This document shows, piece after piece, positions 6,195 through 61,998 of a stretch of DNA of 64,000 bases. The translations under genes were made by a program, and so were the position numbers. A model generated the notes under the pieces. That model was given only the letters and a program-made list of their open reading frames with translations. It ran no database searches and was not told the origin of the DNA. The first letter of the stretch is position 1. Each line of letters opens with the position of its first letter. The DNA is taken from positions 179,118,001 through 179,182,000 of the forward strand of contig NC_091984.1 in the NCBI RefSeq assembly GCF_044704955.1, written 5' to 3'. The stretch comes from Pristiophorus japonicus. Lineage: Eukaryota.

Positions 6195-6517
6195 TCAGAT
6201 ACAGCTGGATCTGGCGATACTTGTTCGAAGCGGGTTTGCCTGAGCCTCATGTTTAACCACACAGGAGTAAAGCTCGTGTGAGTTCCACTCTGAGGCTGGT
6301 AGAGTCAGATAACTGCTCACACTGAACGTGTTGTCCTTCTCCTGCTGGAATCGACTGGTCTCAACACCATTCCCTCTCACACTGCCATCTACAGTCCACT
6401 CAATTTCCGCAGCACCCGGGTTAAAGCCGTCCACTAAACACACCAGGGTCGCCGTGTTCTTTGCTGTGATTTGATCCGATGAAGGCAGAAGGACGGTCAC
6501 CGAGGGGGCCCGCGGAT
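6195..6517 (-). CDS. IGLC: Ig light-chain constant exon, lambda/type II (NS3), cluster 1; reading frame intact
   Basis: Acceptor tttcag|AT at 6518/6517. Translation (N)PRAPSVTVLLPSSDQITAKNTATLVCLVDGFNPGAAEIEWTVDG...YSCVVKHEAQANPLRTSIARSSCI* has both C1-set cysteines, the Trp and the penultimate interchain Cys. It resembles shark lambda CL. Confidence 0.95.
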
Positions 6518-6614
6518 CTGAAAAGCAGAAACAAGTGAAATAAGATCCATTTTTAATTGACATAAAAGTCCAATCAATGTTTTACATTCTGCAAATCTTT
6601 TAAAAATCGACGTC

Positions 6615-7640
6615 ACAAGAACACAAGAAATATGAGCAGGAGTACCCATTTGGCCCCTCGAGCCTGCTCCGCCATTTAATAAGATCATGGCTGAGCTGAT
6701 CATGGACTCAGTTCCACTTCCCTGCCAGCTCCCCATAACCCTTTATTCCCTTATCACTCAAAAATCTGTCTTAAATATATTCAATGACCCAGCTCTCTGG
6801 GGCAGAGAATTCCACAGATTTACAACCCTCTGAGAGAAGAAATTCCTCCTGGTCTCAGTTTTAAATGGGCGGCCCCTTATTCTGAGACTGTGTCCCCTAG
6901 TTTTAGTTTCATCTATGAGTGGAAATATACTCTCTGCATTCATCTTGTCCAGCCTCTCATGATCTTATATGTTTCGATAAGATCACCTCTCAATCTATAC
7001 TCCAATGAGTATAGACCCAACCTACTCAGCCTATCTTCATAACTCAACCCACTGATCTCCAGAATCAAACTAGTGAACCTTTTCTGAGCATCCTCCAATA
7101 CAATTATATCCTTTCTTAAATACGGAGACCAAAACTGCATGCAATACTCCAGGTGTGGCCTAACCAATACCCTGTACAGTTGTATCAGAACTTCTCTGCT
7201 TTTATACTCCATCCTCCTTGCAATAAAGGCCAACATTCCATGTGCCTTCCTGATTACTTGCTGTACCTGCACACTAACTTTTTGTGCTTCATGCACAAGG
7301 GCCCCCAGGTCCCTCTGTACTGAAGCACTTTGCAATTTTTCTCCATTTAAATTGTAATCTGCTTTTCTATTTTTTCTGCCAAAGTGGATAACCTCACATT
7401 TTCCTACATTATACTTTATCTGCCAAACTTTTGCCCACTCACTTAACCTGTCTATATCTCTTTGCAGATTTTTTTGTGTCCTCACAATTTGCTTTCCCAA
7501 CCATCTTTTTATCATCAGCAAACTTGGTTACATTACACTCAGTCCCTTCATCCAAGTCATTAATATAGATTGTAGATAGTTGAGGCCGCAGCACCGATCG
7601 CTGTGGAACCCCAGTAGTTACTGTTTGCCAACTGGAAAAT
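6615..7640 (-). mobile_element. CR1 LINE 3' fragment in the J-C intron of cluster 1
   Basis: RT C-terminal motifs KCEVIHFG and LVRPHLEYC, plus the CR1 3' UTR. Confidence 0.88.
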
Positions 7641-7769
7641 GTTTTATTATATTTGAATTACTTTGTTTGGAGATATGTCTCTGGTCACAGTGTCACAAAA
7701 GATACATTTTCTCTAAAATTATATCCCAACTATAACCTCAATTTTCAAATCATGAAGCCAAAATTTCCC

Positions 7770-7950
7770 GGGCAATACTTATCGCTCAACCACCATTGCT
7801 AATACAGACCAACTGGCCATGATCGCATTGCTGTTTGTGGACCCTTGCTGTGCGCAAATAGGTTGCCACTTTTCTTGCATTAAGAAGCGCTTGGAGATAT
7901 CCTGAGGTCATGGTAGGCGATATATGAATGCAAATTCATTCTTTCTTATT
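7770..7950 (+). mobile_element. Shark SINE fragment (HE1-like), also present at ~55000-55210
   Basis: Contains ttgctgtttgtgg...ttgctgtgcgcaaat and gaagcgcttgga.atatcctgaggtc...atataaatgcaa motifs typical of elasmobranch SINEs (from recall); shared by both clusters. Confidence 0.55.
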
Positions 7951-8034
7951 ATTAAAGAGACATATTCCCATGATTTTAAAATAAAATATAACCCAGTCTA
8001 AGAATGTTGAAGATGGACTGTCACAATATCCTAC

Positions 8035-9745
8035 ATAGAATTACATAGGATATACGCCAAAGAAACAGGTCATTTAGCAGAACCAATCCATGCTGGCGTT
8101 TATCGCTGCACTCGAGTCTCCTTCCGTCTTTCCTCATCTGAAGCTATACACATAACCCTCTATTACCTTCTCCCTCATATGCTTGTCTAGCCTCCCCTTA
8201 AATGCACTGATACAATTCGCTTCAACCACTCCCTGTGGTGGTGAGTTCTATATTCTCACCACTCTTTGTGTAAAGAATTTTCTTCTGAATTCCCTATTCG
8301 ATTTCTTGGTGACTATCTTATATTGATGGCCTGTAATTATGCTGTTCCCCAGAAGTTGAAAGATTCTCTCTATACCAAATCTTTCAAAACCTTTCATAAT
8401 TTTAAAGACTTCTATTAGGTCACACCTCAGCCTTCTTTTTCTGAGAAAAGAGACCCAGCCTGCTCATCCTTTTCTGATTATGTATATCCTCACATTTTTG
8501 ATATCATCCTTTAAATCTTCTCTGCAACCTCTCCAGTGCCTCTAAATCCTTTTTATAATATGGCGACCAGAACTGTATGCAGTACCCTAAGTGTGGTCTA
8601 ACCAAGTTTCGATACAGGCTTTTCAATTCTATACTTCTAGAAATAAACCCTTGTGCTTGGTTTGCTTTTTTAAGGCCTTGCTAACCTGTGTTGCAACTTT
8701 TAGTGATTTGTGTATTTGTACTCCAAGATCTCTTTGTTCCTCTACCCCAGCTAGACTTACACCTCCAAGTAATAAGTGACCTCCTTATTCTCCCTAACAA
8801 AATGTAATACCTCACATTTAGCTGTGTTGAACTTTGTTTGCCAATTATATATCCATTCTGCAAGTTTATTAATGTCCTCCTGTAATTTGTTGCAGTCCTC
8901 TTCAGTATTGATCAATTTGGTGTCATCTGCAAATTTAGAAATTGTGTTTTTGGTTCCAAAGTCTAAATTGTTAATATAAATTGTGAGCAACAGTGGTCCC
9001 AGCACTGATCCTTGTGGAACATCACTACCACCTCTGCCACAATAAATAGCTACCTTTTACCCCTACTCTCTGCTTTCTGTCTTGAAACCAGCTAGCTATC
9101 TATTCTGCTACTTTTCCCCTGACTGCATTCTCTGATCTTGTTCATCAGTCTTTTACGGGGTACATTATCGAAGGCCTTTTGAAAAATCGAGATAAATTAC
9201 ATCTCTCTGTTACCACGTCAAAAAATTCAATGAGGTTGTTCAAGCAAGACTTTCTCTTTTGAAATTGATGCTGACTATTCGTTATTATATTTTTGCTTTC
9301 TAGATATGCCACTATTTTCTCCTTTAGTAGGGATTCCATTATTTTTCCTACCAGTGATGTTAAGCTGACTGGTCTATAATTCCATGGACATGTTCTATCC
9401 CCCTTCTTAAATATAAGTATAACATTAGCTATCCGCCAGTCCTCTGGCATTACACCTTTTTCTAATGAATTATTAAATATGTGTAGAAAGGCCTCTGCTA
9501 TCTCTTCCCTGGATTATTTTAAAATGAATGGATGAAATCTATCGGGACCAAGAGTTTTATCCTCTTTGAGTTTGATTAGTTTATTTAATATATATCCTCA
9601 TTTTATTTTATCTCATTACTAATTTCATCATCCAATGTTCTGTCCACATGTTCTATCTCCCTGGTAAATACTGAAGCAAAATAATTACTTAATATTTCAG
9701 CCATCTCTCTATCGTTACTTGTGGTATTATCCCTTAATGGCCCAG
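8035..9745 (-). mobile_element. CR1 LINE fragment in the J-C intron of cluster 1
   Basis: RT motifs PEDWRIANV..FKKG, NYRPVSLTS and SKFADDTKL. Confidence 0.85.
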
Positions 9746-11752
9746 TAAAATATATTACTATGTTGCTTTATGTTCCTTGACAATTTAATTCATAATTTAA
9801 TTTAATTTAATCTTGTCTCTTTAAATGAACGTTCGCACCGACAACGTTTTGCAAGCATCAGCCGGCAATAACAAACCGTGGGCAAAATGTCATGTAAAGT
9901 AGCGAAGAAAGGGCTGAAACATTTTTATTTTTTCCAATCGGAGAATTTGAGGTTGGACTGCTCCAATTGGTTCTGGCATTGAGGTCAGCTAGATCGGCGT
10001 GCCTCACCCATACCAGGTTTGCCCGGGGCGTTTTAACAATCTATTGTTATTCTAAGCGGTTCAACTTGGAATTTATAATTTCGCCTTGCTTTCTTTATAT
10101 TATAATTTGAAGACTGAAACTGCGAGTAGTCTGACTAGTGCCGCCACTTGTCACAGTTGGTAAAATCTCCCTGCAGCAAGCACTGTTTATCTGAACATTC
10201 TGATACTGAAATATCCGGAGTCCCATGGGAGTATAGATCAGGTTTAACTATCAGTTTATATTGTCTAAACGCAATAGTTTTTCCGTGAACTCTTTGCACT
10301 GGCATTTATACCGGAGATATATCTTTAAACGAACTATTGATAATATTATAGAGCATTTTTCTGCTTTATATCCCGTGCTAGCCCATTTCACCCCAGGGTA
10401 GCCGAATAACCAAGTTAAAATAGCGATAGAGTATACGCATTTTTTGTAATATTACTCGCATCACTGACACTGATCATAGAACCAACAGCAACGCGCAATT
10501 AAGCAAATACAAAAACAGATACAAAAATCTAAAAATAGATTCTGAGACATTCGCACACAATTGCTCGGATGGGAGGTTAATGAGCCCGTGACTTATTAAG
10601 AAAATAGATATCCTGTCATTCGTTGAGGTTTGTTTTTGTGTTATGGAGAAAATAGATAAATGTTGATATTTATACTAGCTGAATTTAGCGAAACAGTCTG
10701 ATTGCTATATCATTGGGGATTAATGTGAAATGTAGGACTGGCGATCTTCTACAGAACGGTTTTCATTAAGTTTGGAGACGAGGGGGAGTAAGTTGCCGCA
10801 AGACTCCTTCCGCAGTCTCCATCCAAGAATGATGATTAAATCTAGTTAGTGCTTTAAGTGGAATGAAAACGGTGTTGTGTGAAGGTTTTGAATTTGTGTT
10901 TTTAGCCCTTTGAGTGAGGCTATAAGGGCAGGGTGTAAACTAGTCTGAAATACTATGTAGGATTGATAGAACAATTACATTATAGGATAGAGTAAAAGGC
11001 CAATCCCGCCCATTGAAAGACACGACCACTTAATCCATTTCCCATACATTCGTTTTTTCTTTTTCAAATGTTTATCCACTTTCCATTTAAGCGCCACCAT
11101 GGGCCCCACTCTTACAGGGAGGACATTGCAGGTCTACCACTCCATTGGACAAAAAAAAAAATCCTAATCTATCACTTGGTTCTTCTAGCAATGACGTTTA
11201 ATTTATGTCCTCAGGTTACCGACTGACCGATCAGTGAAAATAGTTCTTTATCCATTTTGTCGCAACGGAATGATTCCTAATTCTGAACATGTCCAGGAGA
11301 TCACACCTTAAGCTTGGAGTGAATCACTCGTAACTAAAACCTCGCAGTACCGGTATCATCTTAACAAATTCCCCCTGTACCCTCTCTAAGGCCTGAACAC
11401 TCTCCGTAACACTGACTATCTCTTAAATATCACTGGATGCTGATTCACAAGCTTGGTATAATTATATTTTAAGAGCAATAATCTTGATTTACACCAATTC
11501 AATCTACCAAGCCAATGATTTTAAAGTATTTTTTGGTAATTCGTCAGTCATGTTGCAAATGTTAGAGGACAATTTGATGAGCACTTTGGAAACCGAATAT
11601 GAAACAATGCAATTGGCTCAGACAGTCACCATGAGATACTCGGACACTGATATATTTTGATCCAGTAAATTTCGACTCAAACAAAATCAAACACAAATGG
11701 AAAATTGGTTGTTGATAAATCCCAAGTTGCAAACTGCGAATAATTTACTTAC

Positions 11753-12092
11753 TGCTCAGATTCAGCTTGGTTCCTCTCCCGAGGGTTAATCCTTCTTTCC
11801 ACACAGCACAGTAATAGTCGGCGGCGTCCTCGGATAGCACGTTGGTGATGGTTAAATGCATCTTGTTACTCGATGAGTCCGTGGACCCGGTAAATCGATC
11901 TGGAATTCCCGAAGTAGTAACGTAGCTCTCGTGCCAAACATACACAGGGGAACTGTCGGGTTTCTGCCAGTACCAGCTCGTGTAGTAGCTAACCTATGTT
12001 GTGTCCTGACATGGTACAGGTGATCGTGACGGTTCCCCCCGGGGAGGCTGAGATGGACGGTGGCTGAGTCAAGACAGGATCCGCATTTGTAC
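11753..12092 (-). pseudogene. IGLV: Germline-joined VJ exon, Ig lambda/type II, cluster 1; 1-bp insertion in CDR1
   Basis: Acceptor ccag|GT at 12093/12092 and donor A|GTAAGT at 11753/11752. Reads DPVLTQPPSISASPGGTVTITCTMSGHNIG*(TAG 11989-11991). Removing one base gives SYYTSWYWQKPDSSPVYVW...GIPDRFTGS...EDAADYYCAVWKEGLTLGRGTKLNLS. V runs directly into J with no RSS. Confidence 0.93.
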
Positions 12093-12232
12093 CTGGTGAA
12101 ATAACAATTTATCGACCAGTTACAATCTGTGTAATAGTAAATATCGTTTGTATTTCAAGTTCGTTAAACTCGAGCACAAAATTCAGGATAATGTAAAAGG
12201 TAGCGATACTGAAGGTTAGCGTCTGTACTTAC

Positions 12233-12282
12233 TGTGTACACTGACCATCAGTGCGGCGAGAATTCGAACCCATTCAAGTCAT
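12233..12282 (-). pseudogene. Leader exon of cluster 1; 1-bp insertion creates ATG ACT TGA
   Basis: caccATG at 12282, donor A|GTAAGT at 12233/12232. It is 50 nt long versus 49 nt in the paralog. The corrected frame gives the signal peptide MxEWVRILAALMVSVH. Confidence 0.88.
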
Positions 12283-12405
12283 GGTGAAGGTTCTGGTGAG
12301 GGTCAGAAGCAAAATCGTTCCTGACACGAATGTGGTTCTGTGCTCTTTCCAAACCGCTCCTTAAGACGTTTGAAACCTCGCAACGTCATTGAATATTAAT
12401 TATGC

Positions 12406-12413
12406 ATGCAAAT
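12406..12413 (-). promoter_or_regulatory. Ig promoter octamer (ATTTGCAT on the sense strand)
   Basis: Perfect octamer about 124 bp upstream of the leader ATG in light-chain orientation. A TGACGTTG CRE-like motif lies at 12381-12388. Confidence 0.85.
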
Positions 12414-14250: not shown

Positions 14251-14580
14251 AACTCTTTTGAGTTTATCTGTAAAATAAAGAAACATTAAACCGTGCCACC
14301 CGCCCTGGATGACACAGCAGACATTTACAAGGCCCCTTTTTTTCCCCCTTTTTTGTGTTTTTTTTGTGTTTTTCTTTTTTTTGGTTTTTTTTTGGGCGCT
14401 AAAATCACATTTTTCCAAGTGCCCGCTATAAAAGGGGAGGGGGACACTAAAAGCACCGGCAATTAAAACAAATTAAACTTTAAAACGTAAAATCAAATTA
14501 AAATTTGGTTGCCGGGCGTGATGATGCACTCCAGTCCCTCCGGTGCCCACCTCTCGCAGAAGGCCGCGAGCGTACCGGCG
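14251..14580 (-). mobile_element. Tx1-clade non-LTR element 3' end
   Basis: ORF end AGTLAAFCERWAPEGLECIITPGNQILI* followed by a low-complexity 3' UTR, resembling Tx1 ORF2 C-termini. Confidence 0.6.
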
Positions 14581-16690: not shown

Positions 16691-19600
16691 CGTAGGTGTA
16701 GGAGGGAGGGCTTTAGTTTCCTGAACAATTGGGACCGCTTCTGGGGAAGGTGGGACCTGTACAAGTCGGACAGGTTACACCTCAACAGAGACGGGACCAA
16801 CGTTCTCGCGGGTGGTTTTGTTAGTACGGTTGGGAGGGCTTTAAACTAGCTTGGCAAGGGGATGGGAACCCAGGAGAGGGCTCTGAGCTAGTTAGAGTGG
16901 GTGAAAGCTCAGATGAACAGAACCCCAAGAAAGAATGCAAAAGGCAGGAGGCAACAGAGCAGAGTAGCACTGGGGTAAGTGTAAACCACAAGGTGATAGG
17001 AAGGGACAATATGTATGAATATAAAGGGGCTGCAGGAGGGGTCAAAACTAAAAATCATGGTTTAAAAACTAGTATTAAAACACTCTACCTAAACGCATGC
17101 AGCATTCGAAATAAAGTAAATGAGTTGACGGCACAAATCATTACAAATGGGTATGATTTAGTGGCCATTACAGAAACGTGGTTGCAGGGTGGCCAAGACT
17201 GGGAATTAAACATACAGGGGTATCTGACAATTCGGAAAGATAGACAAGAAGGGAAAGGAGGTGGGGTAGCTCTGTTAATAAAGGATGATATCAGGGCAGT
17301 TGTGAGAGACGATATTGGCTCTAATGAACAAAATGTTGAATCATTGTGGGTGGAGATTAGAGATAGTAAGGGGAAAAAGTCACTGGTGGGCGTAGTTTAT
17401 AGGCCCCCAAAAAATAACTTCATGGTGGGGCGGACAATAATCAAGGGAATAATGGGAGGCATGTGAAAAAGGAACGGCAGTAATCATGGGGGATTTTAAC
17501 CTACATATCGATTGGCCAAATCAAATCGCATGGGGTAGCCTTGAGGAGGAATTCATAGAATGCATACGGGATTGTTTCTTAGAACAGTATGTTACAGAAC
17601 CTACAAGGGAGCAAGCTATCTTAGATCTGGTCCTGTGTAATGAGACAGGAATAATAAACGATCTCCGAGTAAAAGATCCTCTCGGAATGAGTGATCACAG
17701 TATGGTTGAATTTGTAATACAGATTGAGGGTGAGGAAGTAGTGTCTCAAAGGAGCGTACTATGCTTAAACAAAGGGGACTACAGTGGGATGAGGGCAGAG
17801 TTGGCTAAAGTAGACTGGGAACACAGACTAAACGGTGGCACAATTGAGGAACAGTGGAGGACTTTTAAGGAGCTCTTTCATAGTGCTCAACAAAAATATA
17901 TTCCAGTGAAAAAGAAGGGCGGTAAGAGAAGGGATAACCAGCCGTGGATAACCAAGGAAATAAAGGAGAGTATTAAATTAAAAACCAATACGTATAAGGT
18001 GGCCAAGGTTAGTGGGAAACGAGAAGATTGGGAAAGTTTTAAACGACAGCAAAGAATGACTAAGAAAGCAATAAAGAAGGGGAAGATAGATTACAAATGT
18101 AAACTTGCGCAAAACATAAAAACAGATAGTAAAAGCTTTTACCAATATATAAAATGGAAAAGAGTGAGTAAAGTAAATGTTGGTCCCTTAGAAGATGAGA
18201 AAGGTGATTTAATAATGGGAAATGTGGAAATGGCTGAGACCTTAAACAATTATTTTGCTTCGGTCTTCACAGTGGAAGACACAAAAACCATGCCAAAAAT
18301 TGCTGCTCACGGGAATGTGGGAAGGGAGGACCTTGAGACAATCAATATCAGTAGCGGGGTAGTGCTGGACAGGCTAATGGGACTCAAGGTAGACAAATCT
18401 CCTGGTCCTGATGAAATGCATACCAGGGTATTAAAAGAGATGGCGGAATTTATAGCAGATACATTCGTTATAATCTACCAAAATTCTCTGGACTCTGGGG
18501 AGGTACCAGTGGATTGGAAAGCAGCAAATGTAACGCCTCTGTTTAAAAAAGGGGGCAGACAAAAGGCAGGTAACTATAGGCCGGTTAGTTTAACATCTGT
18601 AGTGGAGAAAATGCTTGAAGCTATCATTAAGGAAGAAATAGCGGGACATCTAGATAGGAATAGTGCAATCAAGCAGATGCAACATGGATTCATGAAGGGG
18701 AAATCACGTGTAACTAATTTACTGGAAGTCTTTGAGGATATAACGAGCATGGTGGATAGAGGTGTACCGATGGATGTGGTGTATTTAGATTTCCAAAAGG
18801 CATTCGATAAGGTGCCACACAAAAGATTACTGCAGAAGATAAAGGTACGCGGAGTCAGAGGAAATATATTAGCATGGATAGAGAATTGGCTGGCTAACAG
18901 AAAGCAGAGAGTCGGGATAAATGGGTCCTTTTCGGGTTGGAAATCGGTGGTTAGTGGTGTGCCACAGGGATCGGTGCTGGGACCACAACTGTTTACAATA
19001 TACATAGATGACCTGGAAGAGGGGACAGAGTGTAGTGCAACAAAATTTGCAGATGACACAAAGATTAGTGGGAAAGCGGGTTGTGTAGAGGACACAGAGA
19101 GGCTGCAAAGAGATTTAGATAGGTTAAGCGAATGGGCTAAGGTTTGGCAGATGGAATACAATGTCGGAAAATGTGAGGTCATCCACCTTGGGGAAAAAAA
19201 ACAGTAAAAGGGAATATTATTTGAATGGGGAGAAATTACAACATGCTGCAGTGCAGAGGGACCTGGGGGTCCTTGTGCATGAATCCCAAAAGTTAGTTTG
19301 CAGGTGCAGCAGGTAATCAGGAAGGCGAATGGAATGTTGGCCTTCATTGCGAGAGGGATGGAGTACAAAAGCAGGAAGGTCCTGCTGCAACTGTACAAGG
19401 TATTGGTGAGGCCGCACCTGGAGTACTGCGTGCAGTTTTGGTCACCTTACTTAAGGAAGGATATACTAGCTTTGGAAGGGTACAGAGATGATTCACTAGG
19501 CTGATTCTGGAGATGAGGGGGTTACCTTATGATGATAGATTGAGTAGATTGGGACTGTACTCGTTGGAGTTCAGAAGGATGAGGGGTGATCTTATAGAAA

Positions 19601-19986
19601 AATTTAAAATAATGAAGGGGCTAGACAGGATAGAGGCAGAGAGGTTGTTTCCACTGGTCGGGGAGACTAGAACTAGGGGGCACAGCCTCAAAATACGGGG
19701 GAGCCAATTTAAAACCGAGTTGAGAAGGAATTTCTTCTCCCAGAGGGTTGTGAATCTGTGGAATTCTCTGCCCAAGGAAGCAGTTGAGGCTAGCTCATTG
19801 AATATATTCAAATCACAGATAGATAGATTTTTAACCAATAAGGGAATTAAGGGTTATGGGGAGCGGGTGGGTAAGTGGAGCTGAGTCCACGGCCAGTTCA
19901 GCCGTGATCTTGTTGGGTGGCGGAGCAGGGTCGAGGGGCTAGATGGCCTACTCCTGTTCCTAATTCTAATGTTCTTATGTTCTTAT
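16691..19986 (+). mobile_element. CR1 LINE with the ORF1 esterase end and a near-complete ORF2 (APE + RT), a few frameshifts
   Basis: WDRFWGRWDLYKSDRLHLN (ORF1), YLNACSIRNK..ITETW (APE), 573-aa ORF with YLDFQKAFDKV and FADD, and a (TTCTTATG)n tail. Confidence 0.95.
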
Positions 19987-27360: not shown

Positions 27361-30300
27361 ATAGTTTTTAACGACTTAGCAGCTTTTTGCCACTTTGCTA
27401 ATTATAGCAATTCAACTATTCTCAGGGTTTATATTTGATTCAAACTAGGAGACACTTATTCAGCTTATAACAAATGCTTTTAGTACAGGTATATTGAGTA
27501 AAATCAACAGAGATTTATCAAGTAAATTATGTTCTGTTACAAAAAGTAATACTTAACAAATGATAGTCGCAGCCGGATTCTCGATAGTGTCCTCTTGAGC
27601 GACTGCAGTGCTGACTCCTTAGCCGCTTTTCCTTCTGAAGATTCTTTCTTCTTGTTGTTTTGATTCGCACTGCCTTCTGAGCAGAAGAGTTGCTTTCTTT
27701 ATAGCATTTTTGTGCCAAAGTACAAGCTAGCAAAATGAGTCCTGGTATATCATATTTTCAATTTCCGAGCTTTGAAACCTTGAAAAGGATACCTGTTTTG
27801 GATCAATAATAATAGACCCAGGTTCGGGATCTGGATGAATGTTAAATAAGAAACAAGACAAATGAAGTAAAGAACAAAATACCGTTTACTGAGAGAAAAG
27901 AAACATTAATAATACAGTTTACGAAGAAAAGAGAAGTATGATAAGATACAACAACGCTCATGGCCTTCCGCCCATCGGGAACTCCACAAGCGATGGCTGG
28001 TCTGGAGCATTGGAGGTCCCGGCACCGCTCGCGAATCACGGTCCAAGGTGAAGTTCAAAGAGCTACGGAACAGTGCTGTACCTTTATACTATCAAATAAA
28101 CATACTATTGAACAAAACATGGGTGCATGTGGCTTATGTCCAACTCCTAATCTGTAAGGCCCCAGGTGCTTGTCCACAAAGCATGAGATCTTGAGCCATC
28201 TCATAATCGTCTGGTGTGCGTCTCAAGATCACATTCTTTCTCTATCCATGAAGCATGGAGCAGAGACACACTGTGAATGACTAAATATCATAATTAACCC
28301 TATGTGATTAACCCCATACAATACAATCCACCCTTGATATTTAGACATTCTAAGTAATATAATCAAGTTGAAGGCATAATGCACCAGTTACACGTTGAGG
28401 ATGCGCAAGCAAAGCCTGCAATCTACACCTAAGAATACATACAAGCAGTAATATCAGTAATAACGCGACGAGTAAAACAATGATCAGTGTTAGCTTTTAG
28501 AAATTGAGCTAAATGAGTTAGGTCTGCAGTCGAAGGAAGGTTAGTAATTGTCTTGTGTACGATCAGTGTTAGCTAACCACCATCCTATACAGCCATCCCA
28601 TGCTGTGTTTGAGGATGGAAGTAGCACAGTCACAGATAATGAGACACAGAGACTGGCCAGCACAAGTTGGTGAGTTGCCATTTTGGGCAGAATTCCTGTG
28701 GGAGGAAGCATAGGTATGTTAATTCAGCCCCGTTGAGTCAATTTACCCTTGTCAACACAGAGAGGAATATCTTGACCAGTCAGGAGCACCCAATAAGTGT
28801 TTCCTTCTCCTTTCGCTAAGATTTCCCCTGCTTGTAAGGGTTTCTGGGGGTACTGCACCCACACTTTTCCTCCTTCACAAACTGTGTCCTGAGTCTGATT
28901 TTCTTTTTCAATAGTAGGGACACTAACTTTGCCTAACATGTGGCTTATGGGAGTTCCCCCCGTAATGGTCGGTGATTCAGATTGCGCACTGCTTGTGGTA
29001 AGACCTTTAACCACCCTTGCAATGTGTTAATGGGAGTTAATATTTTAATCTGTTGCTTAAGTAGTCCATTCATGCATTCTATTAACCCTACAGCTTGCGG
29101 ATAGTAAGGTATGTGGAACATCCAATAGATCCCGTTGTCTACCGCCTACTGTTGCACTGTTTGACCTGTGAAGTGCGACCCATTATCGGACTGTACTTCT
29201 GCTGGCTCACTGTAGTATGTGATTAAACTCTCCAGTCCTTTAATTGTACTTTGTTGATTCGCTTTAGTCACTGGATAAGCTACCAAAAGTCCAGAATAGG
29301 TATCAATAGCAGTGAGCAAATATTGGAACCATTGTTGCAATGGTAAAGGTCCTACATAATCAATTTGCCATATTTGTGCTGGTTGAGTCTCTCTCTTAAT
29401 ATGGGTACCGGGTTGTCGTTGTAGGGGAAAATGCTTCACCTTTTGACAAATTTCACAGGTGTTTATGACCTGTTTAACACTGTCTGTAGTCAAATATAAC
29501 CCCCTATTTCGTGCCCATTGTATCGTACCCTGAATGCCCAAATGTCCAGATTTGTGGTGGGCCCACTTGCCGATGCCATATTCTTCCTCTTCCGCCTCTT
29601 TGACAGCCCGTACCCGGTCTATATTATCAACAGTGTTATTATATTCAGAGGTCTTTGAAGTGTTTTTCATGTGAGCGTCCACATGATATACAGTTATTTT
29701 CATCTTCTGGGCTTTGGACCATATTTGTTCCCATAGGTGCTTTCCCCAGAAGTCTTTCCCAGTTATTTGCCAGTTATGTTCATACCAGTTTCGCATCCAG
29801 CTCGCCATGCCATTGAGTCAGTATATATGTGTACTGCCCATGAGTCAGTATATATGTGTATTTGTTGCTGTTCCTCTTCTAACGCAAGGACTACAGCTGC
29901 TAGTTCTGCTAGCTGGCTGGAGCCTCCCATGCCCTCATCATGCACAATTGTCTGGGTTTTTGGATTGAAGGCAGTGGCTCGCCATCGCCGAAGGCCGTTT
30001 CACCAGACCACTGAGCCATCTGTGAACCAGGCTTGGCTACACTCTTCAGGTGATAACTGTTCAAAAAACACGTCCCCAGGAGATCGGTGACTCCTGGGTT
30101 AAACTGACAGACAACTGTGCAAGTTCACTCTCAGCTGTTTGTGGGTATTCAGCTGCCTGCTCATGTAGTCGGGTGATTCCTCCTTTTCCTTTACTTGCTC
30201 TGTCTGCGATATTCCATCTCCAGCGCACTATAGAGCTTTGCTGCACTCGCCCGACCTTGTATGTCTCATTGGCCAGGTCGATTACCGCATACCACTCTGC

Positions 30301-30747
30301 ACCTTCTTCAGACAGCCGCTCTGTTATAGTTACTACATCTGGGACAGCAGTTGCCAGGGGAGGGGCAAATTTGTTCAGTTGTCGGTAGTCCACAGTCATC
30401 CTCCAACTTTTGCCCAATTTCTGCACAGGCCAAACAGGACTATTGTAAGGGGACACTGCATGTCTAATGATACCCGCCCCCAAGAGCACTTGTATGGTTT
30501 CCCCTGTAAGGTTCACACTTTCTGAAGACTTCCCACATACAGGACAACACTACGAAGGGTTAAAAAACCCTTCACTCTGTATGAAAAAGTGAGTGGAACT
30601 AAAGCAAACAGGCAGCTCCACTATTTTTCCAAACAGGCTATCAGTCACATGAAAAATTCATTCCGCAGTCAAAAAAATCACAAAAGCGCTTTCAGTCACA
30701 GACAGACATTCACAAAGTCTTTCTTCATTCAACCAAGCTTATTATGG

Positions 30748-31938
30748 TTACTCCCCTACCAGGTAAGTAATCGGAATGTGTAGCCTCAGATCCCCGGGAG
30801 CTTGGGTTGATGTGGTTCTAATGGGGGTTGCTCCCGGATCCCGGCCACACCCCAAGTCGAGGGGATCTTCTACATCCTCTAACTGTCCTAATGATAGGCA
30901 GGCGTACCCCACCCGCTGACCTTGGGCTGGTCCCAATAATGCGAGTAGCGCACCCCTCATCATAGGAGGGTCACTCTTAATCAGGCTGCTCCGCATTCCT
31001 GCCGTAAAGAGCTCCTGATCTGGCCCCTCAGATTGTTGGTGATATATTCCTCCCTGTGTTGCCATGTTGCGCAACTGTATTGCACCCTCCACCATAGTAT
31101 TCCAAGGTTTTACCTCCCCTTCCCAATCAATGGCAGAGGGATATTTTTGCCGGACCCCTATAGTAACCATTTCTTGTAACTCAGTAATGGTGAAGTCACG
31201 CACCCCTCTAGTGGTTACCGGCTGTTCCCCATCTTGTTGTTTCGTCTTATTTGTCATAAGGGGTCTAGCTTCCGTGCTCAGAGCATATGGGGGAGGGTCT
31301 TTAGTTTCTTCCCGTTCCCCCCACCGCTCTCCATTTTTTCCAGCTTGTATACATTCCCCACATGATTTTGCATTGGCTTTTAAACACTCACTGGGATCGG
31401 ATTGAGCAAGCCCATACCACATGCAGCAGCAAATACAAAAGATATATTTCAAATCCAGCTGTAATTTCCGACGTCTAGCTTCCTTTTTATTTTGTACTGT
31501 CGGCAGACAGCATATTAAAGTTTCTGATTGTTCATTGACCTTGTCAGCCCGTTCTTGTGCAGTGCGGACCGCTTCAGTCAGGGTTGAGTTTTGACTTTCT
31601 AAAACCTTAGCAGCTGTTTTTAATTGTAGGTTTTCTGCCTCACTTTCCTTCAGTTGTTTACACATCGCCCTTAAGGCTATCAACAAAACCATTCCCATTT
31701 GTGGGGGACTATTTTTCTCCTGTGGGAAGCCCGCATCCTCCAGGAGAGACAGTACCGCGTGGGGTACGGCTCTATCTTTGTTCTGTTCCAATAACGACGT
31801 ATCCCCATGTTGTGGGGGTCCAAACCAGGCTAGCACATTGGCAAGAGAGCCAAAATCCTCATCCCTCATGCCCCACCCTGATATTCTATATTTCTCTCCC
31901 GCAGGAGGAGACTGCTTCTTGTTTTCTCTCTTAGACAT
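30748..31938 (-). CDS. gag: ERV gag ORF (ERV-L/Fv1-like capsid region), open for ~397 codons
   Basis: Motifs RDFTITEL and WNTMVEGAIQLRNMATQGGIY...GPDQELFT resemble ERV-L-group Gag. Confidence 0.7.
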   Translation of the reverse strand: MSKRENKKQSPPAGEKYRISGWGMRDEDFGSLANVLAWFGPPQHGDTSLLEQNKDRAVPHAVLSLLEDAGFPQEKNSPPQMGMVLLIALRAMCKQLKESEAENLQLKTAAKVLESQNSTLTEAVRTAQERADKVNEQSETLICCLPTVQNKKEARRRKLQLDLKYIFCICCCMWYGLAQSDPSECLKANAKSCGECIQAGKNGERWGEREETKDPPPYALSTEARPLMTNKTKQQDGEQPVTTRGVRDFTITELQEMVTIGVRQKYPSAIDWEGEVKPWNTMVEGAIQLRNMATQGGIYHQQSEGPDQELFTAGMRSSLIKSDPPMMRGALLALLGPAQGQRVGYACLSLGQLEDVEDPLDLGCGRDPGATPIRTTSTQAPGDLRLHIPITYLVGE

Positions 31939-31946
31939 TTTACCAG

Positions 31947-31964
31947 ATCCTGTTCGTGACGCCA
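31947..31964 (-). promoter_or_regulatory. Primer-binding site complementary to tRNA-Ser(CGA)
   Basis: TGGCGTCACGAACAGGAT lies 3 nt inside the 5' LTR. Its complement ATCCTGTTCGTGACG+CCA matches my recollection of the 3' end of vertebrate tRNA-Ser-CGA. Confidence 0.8.
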
Positions 31965-33738
31965 AAATGTTTTGGATCAATAATAATACACCCAGATTTG
32001 GGATCTGGATGAATGTTAAATAAGAGACAAGACAAATGAAGTAAAGACTAAAACACCATTTACTGAGAGAAAAGAAACATTAATAATACAGTTTATGAAG
32101 AAAAGAGAAGTATGATAGGCTCACGGCCTTCCACCCGTCGGAACTCCACAAGCGATGGCTGGTCTGGAACATTGTGGGTCCGGCACCGCTCGCGAATCAC
32201 GGTACAAGGTGAAGTTCAAAGAGCTATGGGACAGTGCTGTACCTTTATACTATCAAATAAACATACTATTGAACAAAACATGGGTGCATGTGGCTTATGG
32301 CCAACTCCTAATCTGTAAGGTCCCAGGTGCTTGTCCACAAAGCATGAGATCTCAAGCCGTCTCATAACCATCTGGTGTGCGTCTCAAGGTCGCTTTCTCT
32401 CTCTATCCATGAAGCATGGAGCAGAGACACACTGTGAATGACTAAATATCATAATTAACCCTATGTGATTAACCCCATACAATACAGTACCTTCCATCTC
32501 CTAGGCAGTCCCGTTAATCTCCATACCTCCCACCAGCCTAAACAGTCTCAAGATATACTGCCTTTCTATTGATAAGCAGAACCTGATGTTCTTTGTTATT
32601 CTGTACTAAGTTCAACACATTCCTTTGATTACTTAGGATGGTTCATTTATCATCAAGCTTTGCTTTTCAGCCTTTCACCAGTTTAAAACCCATTTTATGT
32701 TATACGGTCATTTTCTATCATTTGTAAGTGAGTTTTACATGTAATCAATGCATATAAAGGAAGTTACAAACATAAAGGTTATTCATTAATTAAAGACATG
32801 TAAAATAAGCTTCCAAATTCTAATTCTAAGCTGGAGGATCTTCCGACTACTCACAACATCATAATACTGATAAGCCCTTTTAATCTGGACCATTTTACGT
32901 GTCAGATCAATTCATTATCTTCAGTACCCAATCTGGTGACTATCTGTCTGCATTTTCCCATAAAGTCTTGAATATCTAAAGTTATCATTTTTACTCTTGT
33001 CTAATAAACTTTGCGCAGTTATAAATTAAGTTGTGCTTGTGTATAAGATTCAAACCTAATATTACGGAATTCCCCTCTATCATTATAACATCCTTCTACG
33101 GCATCCTCAAATTTCACCATTTGTACACCTATCCCACTTCCGTCAGGTTTGGAGTAGGTTTATTCTCCCCAAGCCTTAAAGGTGTGCATGACAGGTCCAT
33201 TTTCCCCGTGGGTAGATTTAATATGTGTCCCAATGCATGAATGTTGCCCTTCATGTTTTTTCCACCATCTAAGCCAACACAATTTGATGTATGCTTTACT
33301 TAATGATGCTATCGGGCCTTGTTTTTTAAAGAAAATTCTCCCCACAATCCCCCACTCTTTTTCAGAAATCTCCATAACTTTGGGCCTTCCGTATCTCTTA
33401 ATGGACTTCTCATATATACTCCGTATCCTTCTTTTATTTCCCACTGATCTAGACCTTCTTTTATAGTCCAACAATCTGCCGTATATTCTGTTGGTACATT
33501 ATTATCCTTCTTTATCCACAGTGGGAAATGCCATCCATAGGGCTCATTATAAGCCTTTGTTTGTTTATGTCCACCAAGAACCTGTGGTTCTGTTCCAAAA
33601 AAGAGTTGAGTACACTTATTGTCTGAGACTGCTCTGCAGTCCTGCTCTTCATTCGTTATCTTTTCCACATATCCGAGTATCAATAGAAGCATATAGATCC
33701 ACATCATTCACCTGCGAGAAAACCAAACATAATATCTT

Positions 33739-49290: not shown

Positions 49291-49304
49291 AATACAAGTT
49301 ATTG

Positions 49305-53816: not shown

Positions 53817-54134
53817 TCAGATACAGCTGGATCTGGCGATACTTGTTTGAAGCGAGTTTGCCTGAGTCTGGTGTTTAACAAAACAGGAGTAAAGCTCATG
53901 TGAGTAACACTCTGAGGCCGGACAGATAACTGCTCACACTGAACGTGTTGTCCATCTCCTGCTGGACACGACTGGTCTCAACACCATTCCCTCTCACACT
54001 ACTATCTACAGTCCACTCAATCTCCGCAGCGCCCGGGTTAAAGCCGTTTATCAAACACATCAGGGTCGCCCTGTTCTTTGCTGCGATTTGATCCGATGAA
54101 GGCGGAAGAACGGACACCGAGGGGGCCCGCGGAT
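53817..54134 (-). pseudogene. IGLC: Ig lambda/type II constant exon, cluster 2; 5-nt deletion frameshift
   Basis: Acceptor at 54135/54134; PRAPSVSVLPPSSDQIAAKNRATLMCLINGFNPG... It is 318 nt versus 323 nt in cluster 1, with the deletion near 53917-53922 after SSYL. Confidence 0.92.
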
Positions 54135-56216: not shown

Positions 56217-56476
56217 CAGATAATGCTGGATATCTCAGCGGATCCGGCAGCATCTGTGGAGAGAAAAACAGAGTTAAGGTTTCGAGTGGCGACCCTTCGC
56301 CAGAACTGCCGAATGTTCGAAAAGAGTTTATTCTTAAGCATTGAAAGGGCGAGGGAAGACAGAACACATTGACAGGTCAGTGACCTTTTCTCTCCACAGA
56401 TGCTGCCTGACCCGCTGAGATTTCCAGCATTCTCTGTTTTTATTTCAGATTCCAGCATCCGCAGTATTTTGCTTTG
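56217..56476. mobile_element. Miniature inverted Penelope pLTR insertion
   Basis: Two opposed copies of the PLE tail; 14-bp TSD GTTTAC(T/G)ATAGTTA at 56203-56216 and 56477-56490. The site is empty in the paralog at ~10700. Confidence 0.8.
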
Positions 56477-57151
56477 GTTTACGATAGTTATCGGGGATTC
56501 ATGCGATATGTAGGACTGAGGAACTTGCACTGAACGGTTTTCACTGAGTTTGGAGACGAATGGGAGTGAGTTACAGCAAGTCGTCACATTATCCTCCCGC
56601 AGTCTCAATCCAAGAAGGTTGATTAAATCCCGGCAGTGCTTCAAGTGGAATGAAAGCGGTATTGCGTGAAAGTGTTGATTGAGTGCTTTTAGCCTTTTGA
56701 GTGGGGCTATAAGGGTCGGCTTTAAACTGGTCTGACAGACTATGTGAGATTCGTAGAATCATAGAATTATACAGCACAGAAAAAGGCCGATCCGTCCTTT
56801 GAAAGACATGTCCACTTAGTCCCTTTCCCATACATTTGTTTTTCCTTTTTCAAATGTTTTTCCACTTCCCATTTAAGCGCCATGGTTCCGCTCATCCCAC
56901 TCTTACAGGGAGGACACTGCAGAGGGAAACAGTCCCTGGGCTAAAGCAAATATCGTAATCTGTCCCTTCCTTCTTCTAGCAATAACGTTCAATTTATGTA
57001 GTCCGTTTACCTACTGACCGATCAGTGATTTTTTTTCTTCATCTTGCTGTAACAGAATGGACCAGAGCTATGAACAGTTCCAGCAAATCATAACGCATGC
57101 ATCGTGAAATGAGATTCACTCGTGTTCTCTCGTAACTAACACAGCGCAGTA

Positions 57152-60100
57152 AACATAGAAACATAGAAACATAGAAAATAGGTGTAGGAGTAGGCCATTC
57201 GGCCCTTCGAGCATGCACCACTATTCAATAAGATCATGGCTGATCATTCCCTCAGTAGCCCTTTCCTGCTTTCTCTCCATACCCCTTGATCCCTTTAGCC
57301 GTAAGGGCCATATCTAACTCCCTCTTGAATATATCCAATGAACTGGCATCAACAACTTTCTGCGGCAGGGAATTCCACAGGTTAACAACTCTCTGAGTGA
57401 AGACGTTTCTCCTCATCTCAGTCCTAAATGGTCTACCCCTTATCCTAAGACTATGTCCCCTGGTTCTGGACTTCCCCAACATCGGGAACATTCTTCCGGC
57501 ATCTACCCTGTCCAGTCCCGTCAGAATCTTATATGTTTCCATGAGATCCGCTCTCATCCTTCTAAACTCCAGTTGATCCAATCTCTCCTCATATGCCAGT
57601 CCAGCCTGGAATCAGTCTGGTGAATCTTCGCTGCACTCCCTCAATAGCAAGAACGTCCTTCCTCCGATTAGGAGACCAAAACTGAACACAATATTTCAGG
57701 TGAGGCCTCACTAAGGCCCTGTAGAACTGCAGTAAGACCTCCCTGCTCCTATACTCAAATCCCCTAGCTATGAAGACCAACATACCATTTGTCTTCTTCA
57801 CCGCCTGCTGTACCTGCATGCCAACTTTCAATGACTGATGAACCATGACACCCAGGTCTCGTTGCACCTCCCCTTTTCCTGATCTGCCACCATTCAGATA
57901 ATATTCTGCTTTCATGTTTTTGCCCCCAAAATGGATAACCTCACCTTTATCCACATTATACTGCATCTGCCATGCATTTGTCCACTCACCTAACCTGTCC
58001 AAGTCACCCTGCAGCCTCTTAGTGTCCTCCTCACAGCTCACACCACCACCCAGTTTAGTGTCATCGGCAAACTTGGAGATATTACACTCAATTCCTTCAT
58101 GTAAATCGTTAATGTATATTGTCAAGAGCTGGGGTCCCAGCACTGAGCCCTGCGGCACTCCACTAGTCACTGCCTGCCATTCTGAAAAGGACCCGTTTAT
58201 CCCGACTCTCTGTTTCCTGTCTGCCAACCAGTTCTCTATCCACGTCAGTACATTACCCCCAATACCATGCGCTTTGATTTTGCACATCAATCTCTTGTGC
58301 GGGACCTTGTCAAAAGCCTTTTGAAAGTCCAAATACACCACATCCACTGGTTCTCCCTTGTCCACTCTGCTTGTTACATCCTCAAAAAATTCCAGAAGAT
58401 TCGTCAAGCATGATTTCCCTTTCATAAATCCATGCTGACTTGGGCTGATCATATCACTGCTTTCCAAATGTGCTGCTATTTCATCCTTAATGATTGATTC
58501 CAACATTTTCCCCACTACTGATGTCAGGCTAGCCGATCTATAATTACCCGTTTTCTCTCTCCCTCCTTTTTTAAAAAGTGGTACTGATCCAGAGTCGATA
58601 GACTGTTGGAAAATGATCACAATGCATCCACTATTTCTAGGGTCACTTCCTTAAGTACTCTGGGATGCAGACGATCAGGCCCCGGGGATTTATCAGCTTT
58701 CAATCCCATCAATTTCCTTAACACAATTTCCCGCCTAATAAGGTTATCCTTCAGTTCCTCCTTCTCACTAGACCCACTGTCCCCTAATACATTCAGAAGG
58801 TTATTTGTATCTTCCTTCGTGAAGGCAGAACCGAAGTATTTGTTCAATTGGTCTGCCATTTCGTGTTCCCAATTATAATTTCACCTGAATCCGACTGCAA
58901 GGGACCTATGTTTGTGTTCATTAATCTTTTTCTCTTCACATATTTATTGAAGCATTTGCAGTCAGTTTGTATCTTCCCTGTAAGCTTCCTCTCGTACTCT
59001 ATTTCCCCCCTCTTAATTAAACTCTTAGTCTTCCTCTGTTGAATTCTAAATTTCTCACAGTCCTCAGGTTTGTTGCTTTTTTTCGCCAATTTATTTGCCT
59101 CCTCCTTGGTTTTAACACTATCCTTAATTTCGCTTGTTAGCCACGCTTGAGCTACCTTCCCCGTTTTAATTTTTATTCCAAACAGGAATGTACAATTGCT
59201 GAAGTTCATCCATGTGATCTTTAAATATTTGCCATTGCTTATCCACCGTCAACCCTTTATCCTTTGCCAGTCTATTCTAGCCAATTCATGCCTCATACCA
59301 TCGAAGTTACCTTTCCTTAAGTTCAGGACCCCAGTTTCCGAATTAACTGTGTCACTCTCCATTTTAATAAAGAATTCTACCATATTATGGTCACTCTTCC
59401 CCAAGGGGCCTCGCACAACAAGATTGCTAATTAGTCCCTTCTTATTACACATCACCCAGTCTAAGATGGCCAGCTCTCCAGTTGGTTCCTCGACATATTG
59501 GTCTAGAAAACCATCCCTAATACACTCCAGGAAATCAGTTTGGTTAGCCCAATCGATATGTAGATTAAAGTCGCCCATGATAACTGCTGTACCTTTATTG
59601 CACCCATCCCTTATTTCTTGTTTGATGCTGTCCCCAACCTCACTACTACTGTTTGTTGGTCTGTGCACAAGTCCCACTAGCGGTTTCTGCCCTTTGATAT
59701 TCCGCAGCTCCACCCATACCAATTCCCCATCATCTCCGTGATGCCAATTACATCATATCCGTTAACTGCTGTCTGCGCAATTAATTCATTCACCTTATTC
59801 TGAATACTCCTTGCATTGAGGCACAGAGCCTTCAGGCTTATCTTTTTAACACACTTTTCCCCTTTAGAATTTTGCTGTAATGTGGCCCTTTTTGTTTTTT
59901 GCCTTGAGTTTCTCTGCCCGCCACTTTTACCATTCTCCTTTCTATCTTTTGCTTCTCTCTCCATGTTATTTCCCTCTGTCTCCCAGCATAGTTTCCCATC
60001 CCCCTGCCATGTTAGTTTATCTCCTCCCCAACAGCACTAGCAAACACTCCCCCTAGGATATTGGTTCTGGTCCTGCCCAGGTGCAGACCATCCGATTTGT

Positions 60101-60446
60101 ACTGGTCCCACCTGCCCCAGAACCGGCTCCAATGTCCCAGGAATTTGAATTCCTCCCTTTTGCACCACTCCTCAAGCCACGTATTCATCTGAGCTATCTT
60201 GTGATTCCTACTCTGACTAGCACGTGGCACTGGTAGTCATCCTGAGATTACTACTTTCGAGGCCCTACTTTTAACTTAGCTCCTAGCTCCCTAAATCCGT
60301 CTCATAGGACCTCATCCCGTTTTTTAACCGATATCGTTGGTACCTATGTGCACCACGACAACTGGCTGTTCACCCTCCCTTTTCAGAATGTCCTGCATCC
60401 GCTCTGAGACATCCTTGACCCTTGCACCAGGGAGGCAACATACCAT
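57152..60446 (-). mobile_element. CR1 LINE (ORF1 end + ORF2) in the J-C intron of cluster 2
   Basis: Esterase FWGRWDQYKSDGLHL, APE, 343-aa RT ORF and (CATAGAAA)n tail. TSD CAGTA; empty site in cluster 1 at ~11345. Confidence 0.93.
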
Positions 60447-60695
60447 CAGTACTGGTATCAGGTTAATCAATTCCCCTTGTACCTTCTCCAGGGCCTGGAT
60501 ACCCTCGGAAAATCGGGCGCCCGGCTACCTCTTCATTACTGTATGCTTATTCACAAGCTCTGTATGAATATATTTTGAGAGCAATAATCTTGGTTCACAT
60601 CAATTCAATCTACCAAGCCAATGATTTAAAGTAAGTTTTGGCATTTTGTTAGTCATGTTGCAAATGTTAGAGTCCTTTACAAATAATTAACTTAC

Positions 60696-61041
60696 TGTCC
60701 AAATTCAGCTTCGTTCTTCTCTCGAAAATGAATATAACGGCATTGGAGAATCTCGCAGCACAGTAATAATCAGCGGCGTCCTCGGACTGCACGTTGGTGA
60801 TGATTAAATGCATCTTGTTAGTCCATGGGTCCACAGACCCAGAAAATCGATCTGGAATTCCCGAACCTGTGGTATCTTTGATACCAAACTTACACAGGGA
60901 CACGGCCGGGTTTTTGCCAGTGCCAGTTCGTGTAATAGTTGTCGATGCTGCCTCAGGACAGGGCACACATGATCGTGACGGTTTTCCCTGGGAAGGTTAA
61001 GATGGACAGTGGCTGAGTCAGAACAGGATCCACGTTTGTAC
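60696..61041 (-). pseudogene. IGLV: Germline-joined VJ exon, Ig lambda/type II, cluster 2; disabled
   Basis: Reads DPVLTQPLSILTFPGKTVTIMCALS*(TGA 60953-60955)GSIDNYYTNWHWQKPGRVPV*(TAA 60890-60892), then a frameshift in CDR2, then GIPDRFSGS...DYYCAARFSNAVIFIFERRTKLNLD|GTAAG. The FGxG motif has decayed to FERR. Confidence 0.92.
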
Positions 61042-61153
61042 CTGGTGAATTAACAATTTATCGATCAGTTACACTCATGCAATTGTGAATATTGTTTGTA
61101 ATTCAGGTTCGTTAAACTCAAGCACAAACAAATCAGGGCAATGTAAAAAGCAG

Positions 61154-61917
61154 TGTTGGGATAAAAAGTAGACCTCTTCCTCAATGTGGACTCACTGATA
61201 TAAGGAATCAGCATCCGCCTGACTGTATAGCGACTACAGAATCACTCAGACTAAACCTCGGTTCAACCAGTTTTTATTCAAGCATACAGGGGAAGGGCTC
61301 CGATGAACACTTCTCCGATCAGAGGTTTTACGATTACAATTATGCAGTTTTTTGAGGTGTGTGACCCTCCTACAAAACCATCGATTGACTTACTGTTATT
61401 AACGAAGTTACATCGATTCGTCGACCCTCATCAGACTGGCTCCGAGTGTCGCTCCCCCACCTGTCCATCTCCCATCACATGTCACCCTTCTGGAATGTGT
61501 TATTCAGTTGTGTCAACTTTGCCTCAGTTGCTCATGACATGTTGATTAACTTTGTTTTCCAGACTGGTGCCTCCTTATACCTCTCCCAAGAACTCTAGTC
61601 AAAACTACCAGTCAAACCATCCTGTTCTCATGCTGCTATAACCTATGTTCCCAAACATTTTACTCTCCTTGTTCTGTACTGAATATGTAAGTTTCCATGA
61701 GTCTGTACCAACGTTAGTACAACAGATCAAGCTTTGCTGCTTCCCATTCATAAACCCCATTCAAGCAAGTGTATAAGCGTGCTTTACATACATAAATGAG
61801 TTTACATACAATCTGGGCCATGTGTCAGATCAACTCACTACCTTCAGTATCCTTTTTAGGGAGCATCTGTCTGTCTGTCTGTCTCCCACTTTAGTGACAA
61901 TATTTTATCCCCTTACA
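61154..61917 (-). mobile_element. Solo LTR in the leader-V intron of cluster 2
   Basis: TG...CA termini with an imperfect inverted repeat (TGTTGGGATAAAA / TTTTATCCCCTTACA). 4-bp TSD GCAG at 61150-61153 and 61918-61921. Absent from the cluster 1 intron. Minus-strand AATAAA at 61273-61278. Confidence 0.85.
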
Positions 61918-61949
61918 GCAGCGATATGAAGGTTATGGCCTGTACTTAC

Positions 61950-61998
61950 CATGGAGATTGAGCATCAGTGCAATGAGAACTCTAATCCATTCAATCAT
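61950..61998 (-). pseudogene. Leader exon of cluster 2 (frame intact)
   Basis: ATG at 61998; MIEWIRVLIALMLNLH G|GTAAGT; 49 nt. Confidence 0.88.

What the first reader, a model, noticed from the sequence alone, without database searches (positions are those of the whole stretch)
6195..61998. Two tandem germline-joined lambda light-chain clusters with different fixed CDR3s
Seen: two same-orientation L-VJ-C units 47.6 kb apart with collinear, homologous introns and flanks. V is fused to J with no RSS. The junctions are unrelated: C-AVWKEGLT-(L)GRG (8 residues) versus C-AARFSNAVIFI-FERR (11 residues). Established: cartilaginous-fish type II/lambda genes are germline-joined and cluster-organised. 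Inference: neighbouring duplicates carry independent V-J joints. Either germline RAG joining occurred separately after duplication, or CDR3 was later rewritten by conversion or indels. This is a physical record of an inherited pre-rearranged repertoire.
Basis: partly seen in the sequence, partly recalled or inferred. Interest (0 to 1): 0.7.

Follow-up and report, generated by a model that had tools for sequence, protein, structure and literature searches.

The report
Two broken pre-joined shark antibody genes
These are two broken neighbouring copies of a shark antibody light-chain gene type that is always inherited pre-assembled; their different binding loops match old loop types found in other copies and other sharks, so they were likely reshaped after assembly rather than joined separately.

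Summary
The anatomy is real: two minus-strand L-VJ-C lambda (type II) clusters with fused V-J, no RSS and loops of 8 and 11 residues. Unit 1 has two 1-nt frameshifts but is still spliced; unit 2 has two stops, V and C frameshifts and no octamer. They begin an array of 15 joined genes (4 intact); 22 of 22 scored lambda joints are in frame, and no split lambda gene was found. By introns and flanks the two units are sisters, with an 11-residue gene next. Unit 2's loop belongs to an 11-residue class shared with dogfish and sevengill shark. Unit 1's loop matches the 9-residue 'xVW' paralogues (17-18/24 nt) better than unit 2 (11/24). Independent joining after duplication is therefore unlikely; a short conversion plus one lost codon fits best. 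Across 81 relatives, loop lengths cluster at 5, 9 and 11-12 and motifs cross shark-ray lines while frameworks group by lineage. All-joined lambda clusters are known, and this scan noted similar arrays and old loops before on other DNA.

The parts
12406..12413 (-). Unit 1 octamer (ATTTGCAT), promoter
   Evidence: same position in intact paralogues
12233..12282 (-). Unit 1 leader exon; 1-nt insertion after codon 2 gives Met-Thr-stop
   Evidence: present without gap in spliced contig of run X5
11753..12092 (-). Unit 1 fused VJ exon; 1-nt insertion in CDR1 (about 11992) with stop
   Evidence: Pfam V-set 1.1e-10 for the part after the break; DNA contigs and X5 agree
11784..11807 (-). Unit 1 CDR3, 8 codons AVWKEGLT, followed by Leu in place of J-Phe
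   Evidence: 17-18/24 nt to 9-residue paralogues L002/L008
6195..6517 (-). Unit 1 C exon, open frame, ends SSCI
   Evidence: Pfam C1-set 8.2e-26; spliced to VJ in X5
61950..61998 (-). Unit 2 leader exon, open; upstream promoter and octamer missing
61042..61949 (-). Unit 2 L-V intron enlarged by a high-copy repeat (about 61180-61870)
   Evidence: depth in the thousands across this part
60696..61041 (-). Unit 2 fused VJ exon; TGA 60955, TAA 60892, 2-nt deficit in CDR2, FGRG decayed to FERR
   Evidence: two DNA contigs, one identical and one with 10 differences, keep the joint and the lesions
60727..60759 (-). Unit 2 CDR3, 11 codons AARFSNAVIFI
   Evidence: 16-18/33 nt without gaps to the six other 11-codon loops; closest to Squalus and Heptranchias loops
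53817..54134 (-). Unit 2 C exon with 5-nt deletion (frameshift)

Best explanation
Both units are broken copies in a tandem array of shark lambda light-chain clusters whose V and J are fused in the genome, and they likely arose by duplication of an already joined cluster, after which unit 1's loop was likely replaced from a short-loop paralogue and shortened by one codon while unit 2 kept the older 11-residue loop. Shown: joined state, lesions, sister relation of the flanks, loop similarities. Inferred: the ancestor of the pair had an 11-residue loop (parsimony: sister gene L005 and the more distant family have 11); a short gene-conversion tract over CDR3-FR4 brought in a 9-residue 'xVW' loop; both genes died later. 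Intact members would work without RAG: octamer-driven transcription, splicing of L-VJ-C, one fixed loop per gene, further variety from hypermutation (recalled). How many original joints founded the 5-, 9- and 11-residue classes cannot be decided; if several, they are likely older than the shark-ray split.
For: 15 of 15 genes of the array and 7 more lambda-like genes 1-1.5 Mb away are joined, 22 of 22 scored joints in frame, against 4 of 6 for recently joined nurse-shark kappa genes (PMC2193156). Non-coding tree: (L005,(unit 1,unit 2)) 100/100* and 100/99*; the five 9-residue genes fall on the other side of that branch; AU rejects unit 1 with the 9-residue genes on flanks (p 0.0009). V framework does not reject unit 1 + unit 2 (p 0.29). 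Informative sites side with unit 2 72:15 in introns and framework but 0:5 in CDR3-FR4 (Fisher p 3e-4). Unit 1 loop: 18/24 and 17/24 nt to L008 and L002 with a one-codon gap (0 of 5000 shuffles), 11/24 to unit 2, 10/24 to L005. Best foreign matches: Heptranchias GVWGSGRLT for unit 1; Squalus AARYSSTYTFI and Heptranchias AVRLSSSVAFI for unit 2. L016 has 8 codons inside a starred clade whose 12 other members in seven species have 11, a likely in-frame deletion after joining. Same-species genes with 88-96% identical frameworks carry different loop lengths in 26 listed pairs.
Against: The site test rests on five sites, was made after seeing the data and depends on gap placement in a fast-evolving loop. 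No exact donor was found. Unit 1's loop also matches an 8-codon loop of the distant family (L048, 15/24 without gap), and 14-15/24 to two 11-codon loops that share the Trp, so its source is not unique. L016's nested position is not established (AU p 0.23). The cross-species tree uses 91 columns, with 23 of 88 branches starred and an unsettled bootstrap. Ends of V and starts of J would look alike even after independent joins, so loop similarity alone does not prove one joint.
Confidence: 0.68

Rival explanations
1. Stepwise change only: unit 1 lost three codons from the 11-residue loop it shared with unit 2 and then diverged fast, without conversion.
For: The two units are sisters; in-frame length changes occur in this family (L016; lengths 6, 8, 13 in other species); 11/24 nt still match (p 0.056).
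Against: It needs 13 changes in 24 nt that happen to converge on the 9-residue 'xVW' loops (17-18/24); 0 of 5 informative CDR3-FR4 sites side with unit 2.
Confidence: 0.17
2. Independent germline RAG joining: an unjoined cluster duplicated, and each copy was joined separately in germ cells.
For: Sister clusters with loops that differ in length and barely align; precedent in nurse-shark kappa (NS4), at least five independent joins (PMC2193156); another AI note reports a lone unjoined lambda-like gene in a different genome (not checked).
Against: No split lambda gene among 24 lambda-like V exons here; the unjoined state would have had to persist along the backbone of the tree and vanish everywhere, with separate in-frame joins for unit 1, unit 2, L005, the 9-residue clade, the second intron family and L006; both loops have counterparts in other sharks; none of 81 relatives has 7 or 10 residues while 33 have 9 and 27 have 11.
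Confidence: 0.1
3. The joints are somatic rearrangements from lymphocyte DNA, or the lesions are assembly errors.
For: The tissue of the DNA runs is not on record; contigs drop rare variants; both unit 1 lesions are single added T beside a T.
Against: Three DNA runs bridge unit 1's joint without a difference and a spliced contig of another sample carries the joint and both insertions; two different DNA contigs keep unit 2's joint and stops; somatic joining would not fix 22 of 22 genes in frame in one assembly, while kappa V exons on the same contig are split with RSS.
Confidence: 0.03

Closest known systems
Cartilaginous-fish Ig lambda light chains (type II, nurse-shark NS3, sandbar-shark lambda)
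   Same: One V, J and C per cluster; V-J fused; all genes of the type joined (PMC4279169 and PMC5192425 passages). An intact paralogue finds 81 chondrichthyan light chains, most named lambda-like, among them sandbar-shark lambda at 64-65%.
   Different: These two copies are pseudogenes; the array has 15 genes, 4 intact (nurse shark has six loci, PMC5192425).
Recently germline-joined kappa (NS4 / type III) genes of the nurse shark (Lee et al. 2000, PMC2193156)
   Same: Fixed joints inherited in the germline, loops differing between genes.
   Different: NS4 joined genes sit beside nearly identical split genes, are dated to 50 Myr or less and 4 of 6 are in frame; here no split relative was found, all scored joints are in frame and loop classes cross species.
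Chicken germline-fused VD pseudogenes (as discussed in PMC2193156)
   Same: One early joint, then duplication and gene conversion, is the history proposed for them too.
   Different: There conversion is a somatic diversifier in B cells; here the inferred conversion is a germline event between clusters, and no donor role was shown.

Membership tests
Chondrichthyan Ig lambda (type II/NS3) cluster | One leader, VJ and C exon per cluster | tested here: met
Chondrichthyan Ig lambda (type II/NS3) cluster | V and J fused, no RSS | tested here: met
   no RSS in the window; one stray 11-spacer match beside a C exon in 77 loci, 365 kb
Chondrichthyan Ig lambda (type II/NS3) cluster | V sequence groups with type II/lambda chains | tested here: met
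   unit 1 framework 84% to a sandbar-shark lambda chain, unit 2 75% to a Heptranchias chain; that tree held only lambda hits; kappa V exons score far lower against a paralogue
Chondrichthyan Ig lambda (type II/NS3) cluster | Joined state in non-lymphoid germline DNA | not testable with these tools
   runs are contigs with no tissue on record
Functional lambda gene | Open leader-VJ-C frame | tested here: not met
   both units broken
Functional lambda gene | Octamer promoter and spliced transcript | tested here: inconclusive
   met for unit 1 (octamer 12413; one spliced contig); no octamer for unit 2
NS4-like recent independent germline joins | Close split relatives with RSS in the same family | tested here: not met
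   none among 24 lambda-like V exons, two of them cut by insertions before the joint; protein search scored 150 of 739 candidates and 8 weaker hits were read
NS4-like recent independent germline joins | P or N nucleotides and trimming readable against a split relative | not testable with these tools
   no unjoined lambda ends exist here to compare with
NS4-like recent independent germline joins | A share of out-of-frame joints | tested here: not met
   22 of 22 in frame

The most novel reading that the evidence does not exclude
Cartilaginous fishes keep a small inherited set of fixed lambda binding loops (5, two kinds of 9, two kinds of 11-12 residues), older than the shark-ray split and in part than the chimaera split, held by selection while frameworks are homogenised and loops are moved between clusters by short germline gene conversion; unit 1 records one such loop swap.
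Probability: 0.45. Interest if true: 0.55.

Novelty: new member of a known kind. Interest (0 to 1): 0.3.

Why it matters
The two genes themselves are ordinary relics of a known system. The array around them shows how an antibody class that lost rearrangement still keeps several loop shapes. The four intact genes carry four different loop classes, each seen in other species. If such loops have been kept for hundreds of millions of years (dates recalled), they are candidates for conserved, innate-like specificities, and chromosome-level shark genomes now make the number and age of the original germline joints testable.

Tried and rejected
Assembly error as the cause of unit 1's frameshifts: rejected, as DNA contigs and a spliced contig of another sample carry them. 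Unit 1 as a true member of the 9-residue clade by descent: rejected on flanks (AU p 0.0009). A displaced promoter for unit 2: none in 18 kb beyond the window, only a distal 69% match. A split lambda gene: the RSS scan and 8 weaker hits gave only split kappa-like V and what I read by eye as TCR-, sigma- and heavy-chain-like V exons. Nesting of L016 among 11-residue genes: unresolved. V-framework trees were too short to place either unit. No RNA holder is listed as such; runs X5 and X17 had no contig over unit 2's VJ, which says nothing on expression. Four papers were not held (PMC47676, PMC4874517, PMC7094790, PMC7708420). N/P signatures could not be read. No structure or complex was predicted, as both genes are broken.
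Full report
Observation. C exons are 47,622 bp apart. Introns and flanks align in collinear blocks of 71-83% identity, and the window has no RSS-like site at the tolerance used. The loops are AVWKEGLT (8) and AARFSNAVIFI (11).

Both are pseudogenes. Unit 1 has a 1-nt insertion in the leader and one in CDR1; its octamer and C exon are intact. Unit 2 has two stops and a frameshift in V, a 5-nt deletion in C, a repeat in the first intron and no octamer within 18 kb beyond the window. Contigs of three DNA runs (one sample, possibly the source) bridge unit 1's joint without a difference. A contig of run X5 (another sample and study, kind not on record) skips the 140-nt intron and runs on into unit 1's own C exon, so it reads as a spliced transcript; it carries both insertions and one substitution in CDR3. 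Two DNA contigs over unit 2, one identical and one with 10 differences and one gap, keep the joint and lesions. Tissue is unknown and contigs drop rare variants.

The array. The window is the low end of a 450-kb array on contig C8 with 16 V matches, which make 15 genes (one is split by an insertion), plus two C exons without a detected V. All 15 are joined; loops are 5 (1 gene), 8 (2), 9 (5) and 11 (7) codons. Four are intact by my reading of the alignments (L002 9, L005 11, L006 5, L009 11); L009 is 100% identical to a UniRef protein labelled Pristiophorus japonicus. About 1-1.5 Mb away lie six V exons of a second family with the same C type and three of a third family with its own C. Of these 24 V exons, 22 have a scorable joint and all 22 are in frame; two are cut by insertions before the joint. 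An RSS scan of 77 loci (365 kb) gave one stray match beside a C exon. A protein search scored 150 of 739 candidates; 8 of the weaker hits were read and none was a split lambda gene, while three kappa-like V exons on the same contig end in a clear 12-spacer RSS.

History of the pair. On 3,883 non-coding columns of the nine clusters with alignable introns, units 1 and 2 are sisters (100/99*), L005 (11 codons) joins them (100/100*), and the five 9-codon genes with one orphan C lie on the other side. Forcing unit 1 to the 9-codon side is rejected (p-AU 0.0009). The J-C intron distance of the pair is 0.26, so the duplication is old. The V framework does not reject the pair (p-AU 0.29). Unit 2's loop aligns without gaps to the six other 11-codon loops at 16-18 of 33 nt (shuffle p 0.002 or less), including a family whose introns do not align. 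Unit 1's loop matches the 9-codon genes L008 and L002 at 18 and 17 of 24 nt with one codon gap, unit 2 at 11 and L005 at 10. Informative sites side with unit 2 by 72 to 15 outside the loop and by 0 to 5 in CDR3-FR4 (Fisher p 3e-4; post hoc, five sites, gap-dependent). The simplest reading is an 11-codon joined ancestor, duplication, then a short conversion of unit 1 and loss of a codon. Against it: no exact donor, and an 8-codon loop of the second family matches 15 of 24 without a gap.

Other species. One search gave 82 proteins; the bat hit was dropped, leaving 81 (80 with a chondrichthyan species label, one unnamed). They are 90%-identity representatives, some from cDNA, and are neither exhaustive nor independent. 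Loop lengths: 5 (9), 6 (1), 8 (2), 9 (33), 11 (27), 12 (8), 13 (1); none has 7 or 10. Lengths 5 and 9 occur in squalomorph and galeomorph sharks, rays and chimaeras (group assignments recalled). Motifs cross these lines: AVGRSGIFT in Squalus and AVGRSGIYT in Pristis on 72% identical frameworks; YAART in Carcharhinus and Mobula. Nearest framework neighbours lie in the same group for 70 of 80 proteins, nearest loop neighbours for 41 of 78, and 26 same-species pairs with frameworks 88-96% identical differ in loop length. A starred clade of 13 genes from seven species has 11 codons in 12 and 8 in L016. Unit 1's best foreign match is Heptranchias GVWGSGRLT, also followed by a non-Phe residue; unit 2's are Squalus AARYSSTYTFI and Heptranchias AVRLSSSVAFI. 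The framework tree is weak (91 columns, 23 of 88 branches starred). Loop length is clustered on it (32 changes, shuffled mean 44.9) but far from the minimum of 6, as expected if loops and frameworks have different histories.

Mechanism. Shown: joined state, lesions, splicing of unit 1, sister flanks, loop similarities. Inferred: duplication of a joined cluster, conversion, codon loss, later decay. Established: lambda genes are joined in all species studied and sit in V-J-C clusters (PMC4279169, PMC5192425, passages); independent germline joins are documented for kappa NS4, with split sisters and 4 of 6 joints in frame (PMC2193156, passages and parts 3-4 of the text). Whether one or several ancient joints founded the loop classes is open, because V ends and J starts would be alike in either case.

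Literature seen. Passages only: PMC5985310 (isotype table), PMC2435157, PMC2193153, PMC12227049; of PMC2192082 only the listing and reference passages. Seven searches listed no paper whose title or abstract start deals with cross-species lambda loop classes, but four key papers were not held and most subscription papers are missing, so this is no proof that it is unpublished; I recall that loop-length variation among sandbar-shark lambda clusters was reported in the 1990s. No supplements were read. Earlier AI notes of this scan reached similar readings on other DNA.

Verdict. A correctly seen pair of dead members of a known gene type. Independent joining after duplication is unlikely (about 0.1). 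The old, shared loop classes and their apparent movement between clusters are the part worth following. Interest 0.3.

Noticed in passing
window 27794-32486: Element bounded by two direct repeats of about 530 bp (92% identical) with an integrase core and zinc finger on the minus strand (Pfam rve 1.7e-15); fragmentary LTR retroelement.
   Followed up: partly
window 16825-19981 and 57160-59615: LINE-type endonuclease and reverse-transcriptase remains; the second lies inside unit 2's J-C intron.
   Followed up: partly
G000:C8:177.71-178.00 Mb (L047-L052): Second joined lambda V family with a very different V but C exons 86-92% identical to unit 1's; loops of 8-9 codons; two V exons are open.
   Followed up: partly
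G000:C8:178.01-178.21 Mb (L072, L074, L076): Third joined lambda-like family with its own C exon (about 70% to unit 1); two open VJ exons with loops GWWQSGVLP and SVWIGSISARI.
   Followed up: partly
L037/L041 and L039/L043: The C exons of two sister clusters (L011, L004) are interrupted at the same place by the same insertion, so the lesion predates their duplication.
   Followed up: no
L020 (C exon of L009): The otherwise intact L009 gene ends SSYI instead of SSCI, losing the cysteine that would link to the heavy chain.
   Followed up: no
9-residue motif class: The widespread AVxxSGIxT loop (14 proteins in 12 species by a loose motif) has no V gene among the 15 in this array; an orphan C may mark its loss.
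   Followed up: no
G000:C8:143.5-148.8 Mb and 159.5 Mb (L080-L082): Large array of split kappa-like V exons with 12-spacer RSS on the same contig as the lambda array.
   Followed up: partly
G000:C2277 and other small contigs (L086): Many near-identical joined VJ-like exons with a short loop on unplaced contigs and C9; other notes of this scan read them as a receptor family.
   Followed up: no
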